DNA of 64,000 nt from a virus (Duplodnaviria; Caudoviricetes), in IMG/VR virus record IMGVR_UViG_3300005686_000008. One strand, given 5' to 3'. The position numbers were made by a program, and so were the translations under genes. Each line of letters begins with the position of its first letter. Position 1 is the first letter of the stretch. Below the pieces are notes generated by a model. The model was not told the DNA's origin. It ran no database searches and saw only the letters and a list, made by a program, of their open reading frames with translations. Below are positions 19,337 through 51,293 of this stretch, in pieces.

Positions 19337-19410
19337 GCCCCCGTAAGCTCAATGGTAGAGTTAGGAGTCTCTAAAACTCTTTGTTGCAGGTTCGAGTCCT
19401 GCCGGGGGCG
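19337..19410 (+). tRNA. amber suppressor tRNA, anticodon CUA
   Basis: Acceptor GCCCCCG/CGGGGGC; D arm GCTC/GAGT; anticodon arm GGAGT-CTCTAAA-ACTCT; T arm GCAGG-TTCGAGT-CCTGC. Confidence 0.85.
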
Positions 19411-44324: not shown

Positions 44325-44618
44325 ATGTTCAACCCTGTCGAGTGGATGAAAGAGCAGTATGCCGAATCATTTTGCCTTAGTATGGTAACTCTCATACTGT
44401 CAGTCCCTCTTTCTGTATTCGCATTGGGGCTTGAAATTGGCTGGTTGTTTTATGTTTCTGTTTTCGTAACACTCTTTGCTATTGTCTTGTTTATAACTAC
44501 GCTGGTCCTTTTTGTTCTCGAAGAAAAGCGTAAGGAAACGGAAGCAGCAGAAAGAAAGAAGAAATACTATGGAAATGCCGTTGACAAATCTGGAGAGAGT
44601 TCGTCAAGGAAGGCTTGA
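44325..44618 (+). CDS. membrane protein
   Basis: SD AGGAG; two TM segments. Confidence 0.6.
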   Translation: MFNPVEWMKEQYAESFCLSMVTLILSVPLSVFALGLEIGWLFYVSVFVTLFAIVLFITTLVLFVLEEKRKETEAAERKKKYYGNAVDKSGESSSRKA

Positions 44619-46050
44619 GAAGATTCGAGAACTTGGTATTGACCCATACGGAATTCCAGTTTTTGAAATAAAGCCTATTTATGAGGTTGTTGATTCGTTT
44701 ATAGGTAATGAATCTACAGCTTCTCCAGAGTATCTTGCAAGAGAATGGAGAACGCAAGGTCGCATTGTCTTACTAAGAGACAATGGCGGTCTTATTTGGC
44801 TTAAGATTCGAGATGATTCCAGAGAGGTTCAAATTGCCATTAGCAAGAAGGATGTAGTTGGAGAGAAGACTTTTCAACTTGCCAAGCTTCTTGACCTTGG
44901 AGATATTGTATTTGTTGTAGGCACGTTGCGCAGGACAAAGACTGGCGAAATTACTATATGGGCGACGGATGTTGGATTGGCCTGTAAGAGCCTCGCCCAT
45001 CCTCCTGATAAGGTTGCAGGACTTCAGGATGTTGAATTGAGATATCGTAAGCGGTACATTGATATGGCCTTTAATGAAGGCTTTATCAAGACTCTTAAGA
45101 TTCGTTCAAGAATCATTCAACTTTTACGTTCAGAGTTTGAAGATAGGCGTTATATCGAAGTTGAAACGCCGATGCTTCATCCTATTGCTGGCGGCGCTGC
45201 GGCAAGACCATTCAAGACCCATCTAAACGCCCTTGATATTCCTCTTTATATGAGAGTTGCTCCAGAACTCTATCTCAAGAGGCTCATTGTTGGAGGAATG
45301 AGAAGAGTCTTTGAAATCAATCGCAACTTCCGTAATGAGGGGATTGATGCAACTCACAATCCTGAGTTTACCGCCCTTGAAGCGTATGCTATCAATGAAG
45401 ATGTATTCTCATTGATGAATCTGGTTGAAAGCATTATTAAGGACGTAGCCCGTAACCTTTTCAGGAGTCCCCCTTCAAGCAATCCGCTCCCGGATCCTGT
45501 TCATGTTTACAATTACGATGGATACGAAATTGACTTGCGTTCTCCGTTCAAGATTGTCAGCTATAGCGAACTCTATCATAGAGCAACAGGTCTTACTTTG
45601 ACCGAGGATACGGACTTTGTAAAGGCCAATGAAATATTTGAAGAGAAGGCAGAAGTCCTTATTGACCCAAGAATTCCTACGTTTGTTCATGGATATCCTG
45701 CCGCTATTTCTCCTCTTACAAAGGTTGCTTCCAAGCAGTCAATTATTGCGCAAAGAGCAGATTTGTTTATTGGCGGCATGGAAATTGGAACTATCTATAC
45801 TGAGCAAAACGATCCGAATGTTCAATATAACGTGTTTACCAATCAACTTGCCGGGGACGATGACGAAGAATCTACCCATAGAACCTTAGATGAAGATTTC
45901 ATTGAAGCCTTGAAGGTTGGTATGCCTCCTACCGGAGGACTTGGAATCGGCATTGATAGGTTAGTAATGCTTTTGACTGGAAACACAAGTGTTAGAGACG
46001 TTATCGCATTCCCGTTTATGAGGCCGCTTCACTCAGCAGTGGCCGACTAA
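44569..46050 (+). CDS. lysS: lysyl-tRNA synthetase, class II
   Basis: OB-fold GRIV..LDLGDIV; RYRKRYID, EVETPML, GGAAARPF, APELYLKRL, FRNEGID.THNPEFT, GMPPTGGLGIGIDRL. Confidence 0.95.
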   Translation: MEMPLTNLERVRQGRLEKIRELGIDPYGIPVFEIKPIYEVVDSFIGNESTASPEYLAREWRTQGRIVLLRDNGGLIWLKIRDDSREVQIAISKKDVVGEKTFQLAKLLDLGDIVFVVGTLRRTKTGEITIWATDVGLACKSLAHPPDKVAGLQDVELRYRKRYIDMAFNEGFIKTLKIRSRIIQLLRSEFEDRRYIEVETPMLHPIAGGAAARPFKTHLNALDIPLYMRVAPELYLKRLIVGGMRRVFEINRNFRNEGIDATHNPEFTALEAYAINEDVFSLMNLVESIIKDVARNLFRSPPSSNPLPDPVHVYNYDGYEIDLRSPFKIVSYSELYHRATGLTLTEDTDFVKANEIFEEKAEVLIDPRIPTFVHGYPAAISPLTKVASKQSIIAQRADLFIGGMEIGTIYTEQNDPNVQYNVFTNQLAGDDDEESTHRTLDEDFIEALKVGMPPTGGLGIGIDRLVMLLTGNTSVRDVIAFPFMRPLHSAVAD

Positions 46051-47988: not shown

Positions 47989-48913
47989 AGGCCTATGTTG
48001 TATTCATGTCGGATTACAAAAGTCTGGCTCCAAGTTTCAAACGATGACTTGGAGCAGATTTTCTCAAATAGGCCGAACCGCTGCCCTACCTATTTTGGCG
48101 GAAAGATATAAAAACAACCTTTCTATTATTTTGAAGATTCTTCATTGTTGCGCGCAAAAGGGCTGGTGCTATAGAGTTAGCAGCGATATCTTTCCCCTCA
48201 TGACTCATCCAGAGGCTAATCTAAAATGGGAAGATATTCCCAATCATGATGAACTAACCCGTCTTTTTCTTTCTTGCGCAAAAGAAATCTATACCAATAA
48301 TATTCGAGTTTCATGTCATCCAGACCAATTCAATGTTCTCGCTAGTCTAAATGACAAGTCTGTTGCTCAAACTATTACCGAACTTAATCATCATGGCTGG
48401 TTCATGGAACGCTTAGATAGCACAGGCTATCATTCTCCCATCAACATCCACCTTAATTGTTCTAGCGGAGACCCCAAAGAAATAGCCAAAAGGTTTAAGG
48501 ATGGTTTAGATAGGCTTGATAAGCATACTAAGCCTCGGTTGGTTATTGAAAACGAAGATAAAGGCATTTGGAATGTTCGCAATCTTATTGAACATATCCA
48601 CGAACTCACTGGAGTTCCCATTACATTTGATTATTTACATCATAAATGTAATGATGGCGGTTTGACAGAAAAAGAGGCTTTTGAGCTTTGTATTCAGACA
48701 TGGGGTAAGACTAGACCATTGTTTCATTTCTCAGAATCTTTACCTGGTCAGAAGAATCTTAGGAAGCACGCTGACTATCCGACCTATGTACCTGATACTT
48801 ATGGGTATGAAATTGACCTAGATTACGAGTTCAAGCAAAAAGATTTAGCTCTCGAAAGAGCAGAAAAAATAGCCCAAAACCTTGCAGGTGAAGAGTTGCA
48901 GGCTAAACTTTAG
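47978..48913 (+). CDS. uvsE: UV DNA damage endonuclease
   Basis: YRVSSDIFP, HPDQFNVL, INIH, LVIENED, FDYLHH, HFSES, HAD, EFKQKD. Confidence 0.92.
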   Translation: MNRKGLCCIHVGLQKSGSKFQTMTWSRFSQIGRTAALPILAERYKNNLSIILKILHCCAQKGWCYRVSSDIFPLMTHPEANLKWEDIPNHDELTRLFLSCAKEIYTNNIRVSCHPDQFNVLASLNDKSVAQTITELNHHGWFMERLDSTGYHSPINIHLNCSSGDPKEIAKRFKDGLDRLDKHTKPRLVIENEDKGIWNVRNLIEHIHELTGVPITFDYLHHKCNDGGLTEKEAFELCIQTWGKTRPLFHFSESLPGQKNLRKHADYPTYVPDTYGYEIDLDYEFKQKDLALERAEKIAQNLAGEELQAKL

Positions 48914-49005
48914 ACGGAAAAATGGTGAGCAGATTCAAGTTCTACAGAAAACTAGCCGATAGAGACTACGAGGACGCCTACCAACGCACTCAAGACAATC
49001 AAAAA

Positions 49006-49092
49006 GGCTTTGGCCGAAGGAATGACGGTTAACAACCCCACCACTTAGGAGTTCTGCCGTAAGGCTTCCGTTGTCCACCCCTTGCCTCAGCC
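49006..49092 (+). ncRNA. Y RNA-like element 1
   Basis: GGCT..GGC-CG-AAG / CTT-GCC..AGCC bulged terminal helix; second stem GGAATGACGG/CCGTTGTCC; GGTTAAC. Confidence 0.7.
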
Positions 49093-49133
49093 ATTTCTTG
49101 CTGATTCAGGTCTAACGATCTGGAAGAAGCATT

Positions 49134-49264
49134 AGTTCCGAGTCGAAGCATTTTAGGTTAACAACGTTTGGGTTTCAGTAGCTTTCTATGACGCAGATAA
49201 AGAAGGTAATCCCGAAAGGGCTTCCCAATACTCTGCACTCCTAAAGGCATCCCTTACTCGGACT
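49134..49264 (+). ncRNA. Y RNA-like element 2
   Basis: TCCGAGT-CG-AAG / CTT-ACTCGGA; second stem GCATTTTAGG/CCTAAAGGC; GGTTAAC. Confidence 0.75.
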
Positions 49265-49308
49265 TTGAATAGCAAGGCTCTAAAAGAGAAATCTAATAGA
49301 GCTTATTT

Positions 49309-49386
49309 GAGAAGATAGAAGTCGAAGGTAGAAGGTTAACATATTGCAAAAAAGACCTTTTGCCACCAACTTACTTCTAGCTTTTC
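49309..49386 (+). ncRNA. Y RNA-like element 3
   Basis: TAGAAGT-CG-AAG / CTT-ACTTCTA; second stem GGTAGAAGGTT/GACCTTTTGCC; GGTTAAC. Confidence 0.75.
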
Positions 49387-49402
49387 TTGACAATTGAATA
49401 AT

Positions 49403-49525
49403 GCGCCTGTAGTGTAATGGCTAGCACGCTAAAACATCCTGACCAATTACTTACCGAACAGGTCGAACGGAAAGGGTTATCTCTATATCCCAGAGGTAGT
49501 TTGGGTTCGAATCCCAACGGGCGCT
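49403..49525 (+). ncRNA. tRNA-like Y RNA (YrlA-like, circularly permuted)
   Basis: Acceptor GCGCCTG/CGGGCGC, D arm GTG..TAATGGCTAG..CAC, T arm TTGGG-TTCGAAT-CCCAA; anticodon arm replaced by CTTACC-GAACA-GGTCGAACGG module. Confidence 0.75.
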
Positions 49526-49550
49526 TTGTAAACGAATGTTGGAAGTTACA

Positions 49551-49585
49551 TACTTCAGTAATAGTTACTGAAGTCGAATAAGGAG
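49551..49585 (+). promoter_or_regulatory. Ro-site-like hairpin abutting the ro60 Shine-Dalgarno
   Basis: ACTTCAGTAA-TAG-TTACTGAAGT-CGAA-T-AAGGAG. Confidence 0.5.
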
Positions 49586-49592
49586 ATTGCAA

Positions 49593-51293
49593 ATGGCAAA
49601 CTATGGAAAGTTGACTGGTTCTCTTAGCTCCAAGACCCCAAAGGCTACCCCTCAGACGGTACAGACTCCTGGAACCGTTCAGAATAACGCCGGTGGTTTC
49701 GTTTTTGAGATTAATAAGTGGGACCGCCTGGACCGCTTCCTGATCCTCGGTACGGATGGGGCAACCTATTACTGTACTGAGCGCAAGATGACTCTTGATA
49801 ATGCTAAGAACGTTATTGAGTGCATTAAGGAGGATGGTCTGCGCACCGTTCAGCGCATCGTTGAAATCAGCGATGCTGGTCGCGCTCCAAAGAACGACCC
49901 TGCCTTGTTTGCTCTTGCGCTTTGCGCAGGTCATGATTCGGCTACGCCCGAGACTCGTCGCGCTGCTCTTGCTGCGCTTCCGAAGGTTGCTCGTATTGGA
50001 ACTCACTTGTTCCAGTTCGCGCACTTCGTTGACGGTTTCCGTGGTTGGGGTTCTGGTCTTCGTAACGCTATCGCCAACTGGTATAACGGTATGAAGCCTG
50101 ACCGCTTGGCTCTTCAGGTTGTCAAGTATCCTCAGCGCACCGCAGAAGAGGGTAACTCCAAGTCTTCCTGGTCGCATGATGACTTGCTTCGCAAGTGTCA
50201 CGCAAGGGGCGACGAGCTTCACAATATGATCTATGCTTATGTAACTCGCGAAGGCAAGTTGCCTGACCCTGTACCTGAGCAGCTTGTTATCCTTGAGGGT
50301 GCAAGCAAGATCAAGGGTCAGACTAACCCGAGCATCGTTGCTTCTCTTGTCGAGGAGTACCAGCTTCCTCACGAGCTGATCCCGAAGGAAGTCGCTAACG
50401 ATCCGAAGGTATGGCAGGCTCTCTTGCCTCACATGCCTATCACCGCTACTATGCGCGTTCTCAACCGCCTTACTTCGTATGGAGTTCTTAAGCCGTTCTC
50501 CAGCGAACTCAAGATGGTTACTGAGCGCTTGACCAACGTTGAGCAGATCAAGAAGGGTCGCGTTCACCCGTTGGCCGTTCTTGGCGCTCTCAAGACTTAC
50601 TCCGCAGGTCGCGGAGTTCGCGGAAGCCTTACCTGGTCGCCAATCGCCCAGGTATCTGACGCTCTCAACGAGATGCTTTACCTTGCGTTCGACGCAATCG
50701 AGCCAACTGGTAAGAACATCCTTTTGGGTCTTGACGTTTCTGGTTCTATGACCGGCGGTAGCGTTGGTGGACTTGACTTCGTTACGCCTCGCGAGGCATC
50801 TGCTGTTATGGCGATGGTTACGGCGCGCAGCGAAAAGAACTGGCACGTTATCGGCTTCACTTCTGGCGGATATTCCTACGAGAAGGGAACTTCTGGTAGG
50901 TATGGTTTCGGCGGGAACTACGGAGTTACCGAAATCAATATCAGCCCGAAGGACAAGCTTGATACGGTTTGCAACAAGATTGAGAAGCTTCCAATGGGAG
51001 GTACTGATTGTGCCCTGCCGATCATGTATGCTCTTGAGAAGGGTCTTAATGTTGACGCCTTCGTTACCTACACGGATAACGAGACTTGGGCTGGTTCTAT
51101 CAAGCCTCACGAGGCTTTGAAGATGTATCGCAATCAGCGTAACCCGCAGGCGAAGGTGATTGCGGTTGGTATGACGGCTACGGAGTACAGCATCGTTGAC
51201 GAGAACGACGCAGGTTCTATGAACTTCGTTGGATTCGACACGAGCGCCCCGGCTCTCATGGCGGACTTCATCCGTAAGGATTTGCGCCGCTAA
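49593..51293 (+). CDS. rsr: Ro60/TROVE-domain RNA-binding protein (Rsr)
   Basis: NNAGGFVF..RFLILGT.G.TYY, RIGTHLF.F..RGWG, LLRKCH, MPITATMRVL, vWA LDVSGSM, GGTDCALP, TDNETW, GFD; SD AAGGAG. Confidence 0.95.
   Translation: MANYGKLTGSLSSKTPKATPQTVQTPGTVQNNAGGFVFEINKWDRLDRFLILGTDGATYYCTERKMTLDNAKNVIECIKEDGLRTVQRIVEISDAGRAPKNDPALFALALCAGHDSATPETRRAALAALPKVARIGTHLFQFAHFVDGFRGWGSGLRNAIANWYNGMKPDRLALQVVKYPQRTAEEGNSKSSWSHDDLLRKCHARGDELHNMIYAYVTREGKLPDPVPEQLVILEGASKIKGQTNPSIVASLVEEYQLPHELIPKEVANDPKVWQALLPHMPITATMRVLNRLTSYGVLKPFSSELKMVTERLTNVEQIKKGRVHPLAVLGALKTYSAGRGVRGSLTWSPIAQVSDALNEMLYLAFDAIEPTGKNILLGLDVSGSMTGGSVGGLDFVTPREASAVMAMVTARSEKNWHVIGFTSGGYSYEKGTSGRYGFGGNYGVTEINISPKDKLDTVCNKIEKLPMGGTDCALPIMYALEKGLNVDAFVTYTDNETWAGSIKPHEALKMYRNQRNPQAKVIAVGMTATEYSIVDENDAGSMNFVGFDTSAPALMADFIRKDLRR

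What the first reader, a model, noticed from the sequence alone, without database searches (positions are those of the whole stretch)
49403..49525. Circularly permuted YrlA: intact tRNA body whose anticodon arm is replaced by a Ro-binding module
Seen: canonical tRNA order (acceptor GCGCCTG, D arm, T arm with TTCGAAT, acceptor CGGGCGC). Between the D and T arms lies ~70 nt in which the Ro-site 3' strand (CTTACC) comes before the 5' strand (GGTCGAACGG), joined by a GAACA loop. This is the reverse of elements 1-3. Established: YrlA RNAs mimic tRNA, but their ends form the Ro stem and the acceptor stem is normally closed by a loop. Inference: this permutation gives free acceptor ends that RNase P and CCA-adding enzyme could mature, and possibly aminoacylate. 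It could be an intermediate between tRNA and YrlA.
Basis: partly seen in the sequence, partly recalled or inferred. Interest (0 to 1): 0.85.

Follow-up and report, generated by a model that had tools for sequence, protein, structure and literature searches.

The report
tRNA-shaped Y RNA beside phage Ro60
This phage gene encodes a small RNA shaped like a complete tRNA, but with the docking site for the RNA-surveillance protein Ro60 where the anticodon arm should be; it belongs to a widespread arrangement of the known tRNA-mimicking Y RNAs that I could not find described.

Summary
The element has a 7-bp acceptor stem with open ends, a D arm, a 42-nt hairpin carrying the Ro60-site motif GUCGAACG with a bulged C, a second hairpin, a T arm and a discriminator. 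It lies 68 nt upstream of a Ro60 (TROVE+vWA) gene.

Rfam's tRNA model scores it 39.6 bits. Rfam's YrlA model (RF02553) does not match it. ARAGORN calls it only when introns are allowed.

It is not a one-off. A covariance model found 98 such elements in 56 of 167 Ro60 loci, in phage contigs and six bacterial phyla. All lie on the Ro60 strand, and all five helices covary. This order is about as common as the published permuted YrlA order (strict scan: 51 vs 40 loci, 3 with both), with at least 10 switches on the Ro60 tree.

It is best read as a YrlA-class Y RNA in native tRNA order, probably matured by RNase P and CCA addition. Processing, Ro60 binding and charging are untested. No paper I could reach describes this order, but two reviews were not readable. 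The scan noted the same class before, in a giant virus (e1-5486589).

The parts
49403..49409 (+). Acceptor stem, 5' strand (GCGCCUG); predicted RNase P cleavage site 5' of 49403 (U at -1)
   Evidence: Pairs 7/7 with 49518-49524. Rfam tRNA alignment. All 7 pairs covary across 98 relatives, 99.3% paired. A relative carries 49407 C>U together with 49520 G>A.
49410..49427 (+). U8-A9 and D arm (GUGU / AAUGGCUA / GCAC), with A14, A15 and the GG of the D loop
   Evidence: U8A9 in 86/98, A14 in 97/98, GG in 93/98 family members. A15 (49417) matches U48 (49500); the 15:48 Levitt pair is G:C or A:U in 79/84.
49428..49435 (+). G26 and the single-stranded linker CUAAAAC
   Evidence: Canonical YrlA of Gordonia phage BearBQ has the similar linker GCUAAAC after its D arm. 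Recurrent in the family.
49436..49477 (+). Ro60-binding module as a closed hairpin. Basal stem AUCCU/AGGGU (49436-40 / 49473-77). CC/GG (49443-44 / 49469-70). Conserved helix ACC/GGU plus U-G and U-A (49451-55 / 49461-63, 49465-66) with bulged C at 49464. GAACA loop (49456-60).
   Evidence: Constrained fold. Motif GUCGAACG fits GNCGAAN0-1G of Chen 2014. In 98 relatives the basal stem is 87% paired with 5/5 pairs covarying, and the Ro helix is 90.5% paired.
49478..49498 (+). V hairpin: 7-bp stem UAUCUCU/AGAGGUA with 7-nt loop AUAUCCC, opening with the conserved UUAUC junction
   Evidence: The segment starts UUAUC or UUACC in 83/98 relatives.
49499..49517 (+). G47-U48 and T arm (UUGGG / UUCGAAU / CCCAA)
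   Evidence: T stem 99.6% paired across the family, 4/5 pairs covary. UU/AA becomes CC/GG in L003.
49518..49525 (+). Acceptor stem 3' strand (CGGGCGC) and discriminator U; CCA is not encoded (UUG follows)
   Evidence: CCA is encoded in only 10/84 family members.
49593..51293 (+). Ro60/Rsr gene, the presumed protein partner
   Evidence: Pfam TROVE 7.7e-30 and vWA_Ro60 1.7e-52. NCBIfam Rsr 487 bits, below its cutoff of 900.
49000..49385 (+). Three simple Y-RNA-like elements in the usual orientation (ends paired, NCGAAG strand first); context for the fourth
   Evidence: Folds; motifs read. Relatives L009 and L019 keep these but lack the tRNA-shaped element.

Best explanation
The element is a Y RNA of the YrlA class, the tRNA-mimicking partner RNA of Ro60, built in native tRNA order.

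Shown by sequence and comparison: an open 7-bp acceptor stem, D and T arms with the tRNA tertiary-contact nucleotides, and a loop-closed bulged helix carrying the Ro60-site motif where the anticodon arm sits. The gene is always on the Ro60 strand and close to the Ro60 gene.

Inferred mechanism:
1. It is transcribed with the three upstream Y RNAs and ro60.
2. RNase P cuts 5' of G49403. The 3' trailer is trimmed and host CCA-adding enzyme adds CCA, giving an RNA of about 126 nt.
3. Phage Ro60 binds the bulged helix at the tip of the long arm.
4. The exposed tRNA-like body, now with a free acceptor end, serves as the effector module that brings a tRNA-binding factor to Ro60 or blocks it.

[quoted passage not shown] The identity of the effector is unknown.
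For: - Rfam tRNA hit of 39.6 bits with a 66-nt insertion.
- The Ro60 gene starts 68 nt downstream.
- Model R1 found 98 elements of at least 59 bits in 56 of 167 Ro60 loci, 54 of them not in the seed. All are on the Ro60 strand, at a median of 560 nt from the gene.
- 95.3% of cells are paired, against 73% in shuffles and at most 51% when partners are slid. Acceptor, D, basal, Ro and T helices all covary.
- The Levitt 15:48 pair covaries.
- The modules match canonical permuted YrlA in phages BearBQ and LolaVinca one for one.
- The element is more conserved than the flanking genes.
- A metatranscriptome contig of a 91%-identical relative spans 49251-49651 and carries a compensatory acceptor-stem change.
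- M. smegmatis YrlA is cut by RNase P and receives CCA in vivo (Chen 2014, PMC4201824).
- U at -1, G1:C72 and a 12-bp acceptor/T stack are typical RNase P substrate features (established knowledge).
Against: - There is no direct evidence for the RNA's ends, CCA addition or Ro60 binding. The only RNA evidence is an assembled contig, which could be a precursor or DNA carry-over.
- The unconstrained MFE does not form the D arm, and the energy z-score is only -1.76.
- The window's sequence was in the R1 seed, so its own 83-bit score is by construction.
- Close relatives L009 and L019 lack the element within 3 kb, so it is dispensable.
- The strict GNCGAAN0-1G motif occurs in only 24/98 members; 84/98 have the looser GNCG core.
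Confidence: 0.8

Rival explanations
1. It is mainly a processing signal. On this reading, a tRNA-like punctuation mark lets RNase P and RNase Z cut the polycistronic transcript, releasing Y RNA 3 and the ro60 mRNA, and the released tRNA-shaped piece has no further role.
For: It sits exactly between Y RNA 3 and ro60. An RNA-library contig of a relative spans Y3, the element and the ro60 start. No promoter-like site is found on the + strand in 48700-49700.
Against: A mere cleavage signal would not need a conserved Ro60-site helix, basal stem and V hairpin, all of which covary. In 31/98 cases the element lies downstream of ro60, and many occur in tandem.
Confidence: 0.08
2. It is an intron-containing tRNA gene. 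On this reading, the roughly 49-nt insert is removed and the halves joined (for example by an RtcB-type ligase) to give a decoding tRNA.
For: ARAGORN -i calls a tRNA with a 33-nt intron here and in 93/98 relatives. After the insert is deleted in silico, 81/98 give a cloverleaf. About 30 relatives have CUNNNAA loops. Wang 2018 raised the possibility of processing towards tRNA.
Against: The would-be anticodon is not conserved among close relatives (AUC, AUC, UAC). Across the family it scatters over 40+ triplets, including A34, stop and irregular loops. The window's loop has C, not a purine, at position 37. The insert is a conserved protein-binding motif syntenic with Ro60. It is too short for a group I intron, and no bacterial endonuclease for such a site is known (established knowledge).
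Confidence: 0.04
3. It is a decaying pseudo-tRNA that happens to lie near Ro60 and has no function.
For: Close relatives L009 and L019 lack it. Phage tRNA clusters turn over quickly.
Against: It is 92% identical to L001 while the flanks are 72-75% identical. There are compensatory substitutions. The same architecture is kept at 39-50% Ro60 identity across phyla.
Confidence: 0.03
4. It is a misread canonical YrlA. On this reading, the real RNA has its ends in the Ro stem and uses the T arm of this unit with the D arm of a neighbouring unit.
For: In tandem arrays Rfam's YrlA model does hit across unit junctions (L004 5067-5139, L091 2409-2532). Neighbouring acceptor strands are often cross-complementary, median 5.5 of 7 against 3.9 at random.
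Against: The window has a single unit. No D arm follows the T arm, and no T arm precedes the D arm. RF02553 gives no hit at E<=10. 26 of the 52 loci found by the strict scan have only one unit.
Confidence: 0.02

Closest known systems
YrlA (Y RNA-like A; Rfam RF02553; S. Typhimurium, mycobacteriophages; Chen 2014 PMC4201824; Wang 2018 10.1101/312249)
   Same: Encoded beside Ro60 on the same strand. Shares the GNCGAA(N)G bulged Ro helix, the GGUUAUC junction, the V region, the T and D arms with tRNA tertiary nucleotides, the Levitt-pair covariation and the CUAAAAC linker after the D arm.
   Different: The order is circularly permuted. In YrlA the ends lie in the Ro stem, the T arm precedes the D arm, and the acceptor-like stem is closed by a loop with no free CCA end. 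Here the D arm precedes the T arm, the acceptor stem is open and the Ro helix is closed by a GAACA loop. The Rfam model does not match.
[quoted passage not shown]
   Same: A 7-bp acceptor stem with free, tRNA-like ends on a Ro60-bound tRNA mimic.
   Different: The M. smegmatis product is two RNA pieces held together by base pairing. Here one continuous chain would give the same shape.
D. radiodurans Yrn1 and metazoan Y RNAs (RF00019)
   Same: A bulged Ro60-binding helix plus an effector module; Yrn1 has a T-arm-like hairpin.
   Different: Their 5' and 3' ends form the Ro stem, and they have no full tRNA body or acceptor stem.
tmRNA and viral tRNA-like structures
   Same: tRNA mimics with a free acceptor end.
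   Different: Those are aminoacylated and act in translation or replication, and have no Ro60 site. Charging is untested here.
Thermus phage phiLo Yrl1/Yrl2 with phiRo60 (PMC12135203)
   Same: Phage-encoded Ro60 with Y-like RNAs just upstream that carry the CGAA motif.
   Different: Those are simple stem-bulge-stem RNAs, like elements 1-3 here, with no tRNA body.

Membership tests
YrlA (Rfam RF02553; Chen 2014) | Encoded within about 4 kb of a Ro60/Rsr gene, on the same strand | tested here: met
   The element ends 68 nt before the Ro60 start codon, same strand.
YrlA (Rfam RF02553; Chen 2014) | Ro60-site helix with motif GNCGAAN0-1G | tested here: met
   GUCGAACG at 49462-49469, opposite CUUACC, with bulged C at 49464. 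Actual binding cannot be tested here.
YrlA (Rfam RF02553; Chen 2014) | tRNA-like domain: T arm, D arm, U8-A9 equivalent, Levitt pair | tested here: met
   RF00005 39.6 bits; A15:U48; family statistics.
YrlA (Rfam RF02553; Chen 2014) | Topology: RNA ends in the Ro stem, T arm 5' of D arm, acceptor-like stem closed by a loop | tested here: not met
   D arm (49412-27) precedes T arm (49501-17); the acceptor strands are the outermost segments; the Ro helix is closed by GAACA.
YrlA (Rfam RF02553; Chen 2014) | Match to the RF02553 covariance model (gathering 69 bits) | tested here: not met
   No hit at E<=10 in 48700-49700. As a control, the model gives 31-43 bits on canonical loci L037, L164 and L145.
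tRNA (RF00005) | Cloverleaf body: 7-bp acceptor stem, D arm and T arm above the curated score | tested here: met
   39.6 bits against a gathering score of 29.
tRNA (RF00005) | 5-bp anticodon stem with a 7-nt loop (U33, purine 37) directly after position 26 | tested here: not met
   A linker and the 42-nt Ro module (49 nt together) occupy that place. The next hairpin's loop, AUAUCCC, has C at position 37. ARAGORN makes no call without the intron option.
tRNA (RF00005) | Anticodon conserved among orthologues | tested here: not met
   After in-silico removal of the insert: AUC (window), AUC (L003), UAC (L001). Across 98 members the triplets are scattered.
tRNA (RF00005) | CCA end, aminoacylation and decoding | not testable with these tools
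   CCA is not encoded (UUG follows the discriminator).
Intron-containing tRNA (group I or bulge-helix-bulge) | Intron with a self-splicing core or a BHB motif, yielding a functional tRNA | tested here: inconclusive
   The insert of 33-49 nt is far too short for a group I core (established knowledge). A BHB motif was not searched for. No joints were seen in the contigs laid, which cannot exclude splicing.

The most novel reading that the evidence does not exclude
The tRNA-ordered form is the ancestral Ro60 partner: a tRNA that acquired a Ro60-binding hairpin at position 26/27. The permuted YrlA then arose from it repeatedly, through tandem duplication. Its members are matured like tRNAs and carry a chargeable CCA end. 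The 41/98 members with a G-1:C73 pair, the tRNA-His identity mark, would be histidylated, so Ro60 particles in these phages and bacteria would carry an aminoacylatable tRNA.
Probability: 0.12. Interest if true: 0.85.

Novelty: new variant of a known kind. Interest (0 to 1): 0.66.

Why it matters
Bacterial and phage Ro60 particles are poorly understood. The role of the tRNA-like domain of their most conserved RNA partner is an open question, and so is its origin. [quoted passage not shown]

About a third of the Ro60 loci sampled here instead encode the same modules in true tRNA order, with open acceptor ends. Three things follow:
1. The published census, built on permuted-order models with tandem-tRNA hits discarded, probably misses a major class and may have read some tandem units as YrlA.
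2. Tandem arrays of these units supply a concrete bridge between tRNA and YrlA.
3. Processing, CCA addition and possible charging become directly testable, including in cultured Sorangium and Polyangium strains.

For phages, a Ro60-like protein has been reported to counter a defence system (bioRxiv 10.1101/2024.10.10.617714). A Ro60-tethered tRNA look-alike is therefore a candidate player in tRNA-centred conflicts.

Tried and rejected
- blastn of 48900-49600 against 50,697 GenBank phages found no match.
- No whole genome is held for the window, so other copies could not be sought.
- L117 ("Enterobacteriaceae" MAG) was examined as a possible Salmonella-type control. It holds only ordinary tRNAs downstream of Ro60.
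- RNAalifold on MAFFT alignments recovered only the tRNA body. The inner helices had to be specified by hand and then tested.
- MFE folding of the element alone does not give the D arm, and folding the insert alone is not better than shuffles.
- The promoter and terminator scan gave nothing on the + strand.
- Public runs: the window is held at full identity only in four bioreactor-sludge DNA runs, probably its source. The one RNA run gave a single contig of a 91% relative, which cannot show ends, strand or level.
- LysRS lies 3.3 kb upstream. I checked it in case it was an AspRS matching the pseudo-anticodon AUC; it is lysine-tRNA ligase, so there is no link.
- Literature: the Sim & Wolin 2018 and Sim et al. 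2020 reviews, Burroughs & Aravind 2016 and the Chen 2014 supplements are not held. The novelty claim therefore rests on the papers I could search.
- A direction for the change between the two orders was not assigned, because the tree is unrooted with at least 10 changes.

Full report
**What is there**

At 49403-49525 (+) the sequence reads in strict tRNA order:
- acceptor 5' strand GCGCCUG;
- U8-A9;
- D arm GUGU/AAUGGCUA/GCAC;
- G26 and a CUAAAAC linker;
- a 42-nt hairpin (49436-49477);
- a 7-bp hairpin with a 7-nt loop (49478-49498);
- GU;
- T arm UUGGG/UUCGAAU/CCCAA;
- acceptor 3' strand CGGGCGC;
- discriminator U.

Inside the 42-nt hairpin the strand CUUACC comes first. A GAACA loop follows, and then GGUCGAACGG. 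This gives ACC/GGU, a bulged C (49464), and U-G and U-A pairs. GUCGAACG fits the YrlA Ro60-site motif GNCGAAN0-1G (Chen 2014).

Detectors agree with this reading. Rfam's tRNA model scores the element 39.6 bits, above its gathering score of 29, and treats 66 nt as an insertion at the anticodon arm. ARAGORN does not call it by default. With introns allowed it reports a "tRNA-Arg(cct) with a 33-nt intron" at exactly these coordinates, through a poor anticodon stem. With the acceptor, D and T stems enforced, the fold has the hairpins described and costs -35.1 kcal/mol, against an MFE of -37.2.

**Context**

The ORF at 49593-51293 is a Ro60/Rsr protein, with TROVE and vWA_Ro60 domains and an NCBIfam Rsr match. 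The 680-nt gap before it also holds three simple Y-like RNAs. Their ends pair and the NCGAAG strand comes first, the opposite order to element 4.

The window is phage-like. It has eight tRNAs, UvdE and a lysyl-tRNA synthetase. Its Ro60 relatives sit on IMG/VR contigs of 28-258 kb. Public runs that hold it at full identity are bioreactor-sludge metagenomes.

**It is a family, not a one-off**

Ro60 relatives were fetched from IMG/VR (83 loci) and from GTDB genomes (80 loci), with 3-kb flanks. Rfam's tRNA model already gave 122-127-nt hits next to Ro60 at only 39-48% protein identity.

A simple pattern scan required perfect acceptor, D and T stems at a length of 100-150 nt. Almost every hit it returned also carried the Ro-site motif, which was not part of the filter.

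A covariance model (R1) was built from 44 such elements, with a hand-set structure. It found 98 elements at 59 bits or more (E<=1e-12) in 56 of 167 loci, and 54 of these were not in the seed. Lengths fall in two groups, about 70-79 nt for ordinary tRNAs and about 110-139 nt for this class. All 98 lie on the Ro60 strand, 67 upstream and 31 downstream, at a median of about 560 nt.

On the alignment of the 98:
- 95.3% of cells are paired, against 73% in shuffles and at most 51% when partners are slid.
- The acceptor stem is 99.3% paired, and all 7 pairs covary.
- The D stem is 99% paired.
- The basal stem is 87% paired, and all 5 pairs covary.
- The Ro helix is 90.5% paired.
- The T stem is 99.6% paired.

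That alignment is fitted to the model. The tertiary Levitt pair 15:48 was never selected for, and it is G:C in 47, A:U in 32 and other in 5 of 84.

Within the window's own clade the element is 92% identical to L001, while the flanks are 72-75% identical. L003 shows C4:G69 changed to U:A and UU/AA changed to CC/GG in the T stem. A metatranscriptome contig of a 91% relative carries 49407 C>U together with 49520 G>A.

**Relation to YrlA**

Published YrlA has its ends in the Ro stem, the T arm 5' of the D arm, and an acceptor-like stem closed by a loop with no free CCA. It is described as resembling a circularly permuted tRNA (Wang 2018).

I confirmed that order in cultured actinophages. In Gordonia phage BearBQ the locus reads:
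- Ro 5' strand;
- UUAUC;
- V hairpin with loop CUGCUAA;
- T arm;
- 7-bp stem with a GCGA loop;
- D arm;
- GCUAAAC;
- Ro 3' strand.

This is module for module the window's element, cut at a different place.

Rfam has this family as RF02553. It gives no hit in the window at E<=10. It gives 31-43 bits on canonical loci. It also hits across the junction between two tandem tRNA-ordered units (L004 5067-5139, L091 2409-2532).

A strict pattern scan classed 51 loci as tRNA order, 40 as YrlA order, 3 as both and 75 as neither. On a FastTree of the Ro60 proteins the two orders cluster, with 10 changes against 28.6 in shuffles. They are not each a single clade.

The tRNA order was the only form found in Armatimonadota, Gemmatimonadota and Abditibacteriota and the main one in Myxococcota, was mixed with the YrlA order in Chloroflexota, and occurred on 22 IMG/VR contigs. 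The YrlA order was the only form found in Verrucomicrobiota, Poribacteria, Pseudomonadota, Actinomycetota and the two actinophage records that had either form.

Chen 2014 reported few YrlAs in delta-proteobacteria and discarded hits that overlapped annotated tandem tRNAs. That would hide this class.

**Function**

The shown facts are the architecture, the synteny and the conservation. The rest is inferred.

U at -1, G1:C72 and a 7+5-bp coaxial stack make a good RNase P substrate. CCA is not encoded here, and is encoded in only 10/84 relatives, so it would be added after transcription. M. smegmatis YrlA, the one YrlA with a 7-bp acceptor-like stem, is cut by RNase P and receives CCA in vivo. 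The tRNA-ordered form would give the same shape in one chain.

Ro60 would hold the tip of the long arm and leave the tRNA elbow and acceptor end free for an unknown tRNA-binding effector. This parallels Yrn1, which tethers PNPase. A phage Ro60-like protein has been reported to counter the ppl defence system (bioRxiv 10.1101/2024.10.10.617714). Any link to this RNA is speculation.

**Rivals**

An intron-containing decoding tRNA is unlikely. After the insert is removed in silico, 81/98 give a cloverleaf. However, the "anticodons" scatter over more than 40 triplets, including A34, stop and irregular loops. They also differ among close relatives (AUC, AUC, UAC), and the window has C at position 37.

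A misread canonical YrlA is excluded for the window, because it has a single unit.

A pure processing signal or a decaying pseudogene does not explain the covarying Ro module.

**Evolution**

Neighbouring units in tandem arrays often have cross-complementary acceptor strands, a median of 5.5 of 7 pairs against 3.9 at random. A transcript running from the Ro 5' strand of one unit to the Ro 3' strand of the next therefore is a YrlA. This fits the tRNA-dimer model for YrlA origin cited in Wang 2018 and makes the tRNA-ordered class a plausible precursor. The direction is not established.

**Novelty and limits**

I found no description of the tRNA-ordered form in any paper I could search. Two key reviews and the Chen 2014 supplements were not readable. 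The scan noted the same class once before, in a giant virus (e1-5486589).

RNA ends, CCA addition, Ro60 binding and charging are all untested.

Noticed in passing
Family members, e.g. L004:4974-5099, L012:4993-5126, L074:2153-2279, L132:2770-2893 (not the window, which has U-1/U73): 41 of 98 tRNA-ordered elements have G at -1 and C as discriminator. In the strict set every C73 (34/34) is paired with G-1, against 7/152 ordinary tRNAs in the same loci. G-1:C73 is the identity mark of bacterial tRNA-His, so a large subclass may mimic, or be charged like, tRNA-His.
   Followed up: partly
V hairpins of relatives, e.g. L084:4861-4985, L132:2770-2893, L098:2431-2552; also canonical YrlA in L165 about 2198-2215: In about 30 members, the hairpin between the Ro module and the T arm has a 3-5-bp stem and a 7-nt loop reading CUNNNAA, like an anticodon loop (C32 U33 ... 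A37 A38). A class-I-type variable loop (A/G)GGUC follows it. The Ro module may therefore be an insertion at position 26/27 rather than a replacement of the anticodon arm.
   Followed up: partly
L004:5067-5139 and L091:2409-2532: Rfam's YrlA model matches across the junction of two tandem tRNA-ordered units (T arm of one, D arm of the next). Some published YrlA predictions with long or variable acceptor-like stems could be such junctions.
   Followed up: partly
L164:2045-2356 (Mycobacterium phage LolaVinca): The canonical YrlA is flanked by two half-units, each with its own potentially closed Ro hairpin. The Ro 3' strand CUGCCUCC can pair either with the upstream GGAGGCAG (YrlA fold) or with the downstream GGAGGC (own-unit hairpin). 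These are alternative folds reminiscent of a tandem origin.
   Followed up: partly
L084, L090, L092, L093, L143, L152, L158 (bacterial Ro60 loci): Ro60 and its tRNA-shaped Y RNAs sit inside large arrays of ordinary tRNA genes, with 10-25 tRNA hits within 7.6 kb.
   Followed up: no
window 49546-49585: A perfect 10-bp hairpin (ACUUCAGUAA / UUACUGAAGU) ends in GUCGAA immediately before the ro60 Shine-Dalgarno sequence. Its stem changes in the relative's contigs (49551, 49558, 49568, 49578). The first-stage note e1-5466586 suggests autoregulation.
   Followed up: no
L001:2430-2956 and L003:2422-2955: In the two closest relatives that have the element, about 530 nt lie between it and the ro60 leader hairpin. 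In the window they are adjacent.
   Followed up: no
window 44512-46050 and 19337-19410: The phage encodes a lysyl-tRNA synthetase (NCBIfam 496 bits, above its cutoff) and a tRNA with anticodon CUA, which ARAGORN labels Pyl.
   Followed up: no
L091:2621-2729, L110:2148-2253, L059:2665-2773: Short members (105-109 nt) lack the V hairpin altogether. L091's copy also gets a sub-threshold Rfam tmRNA hit of 31.7 bits.
   Followed up: no
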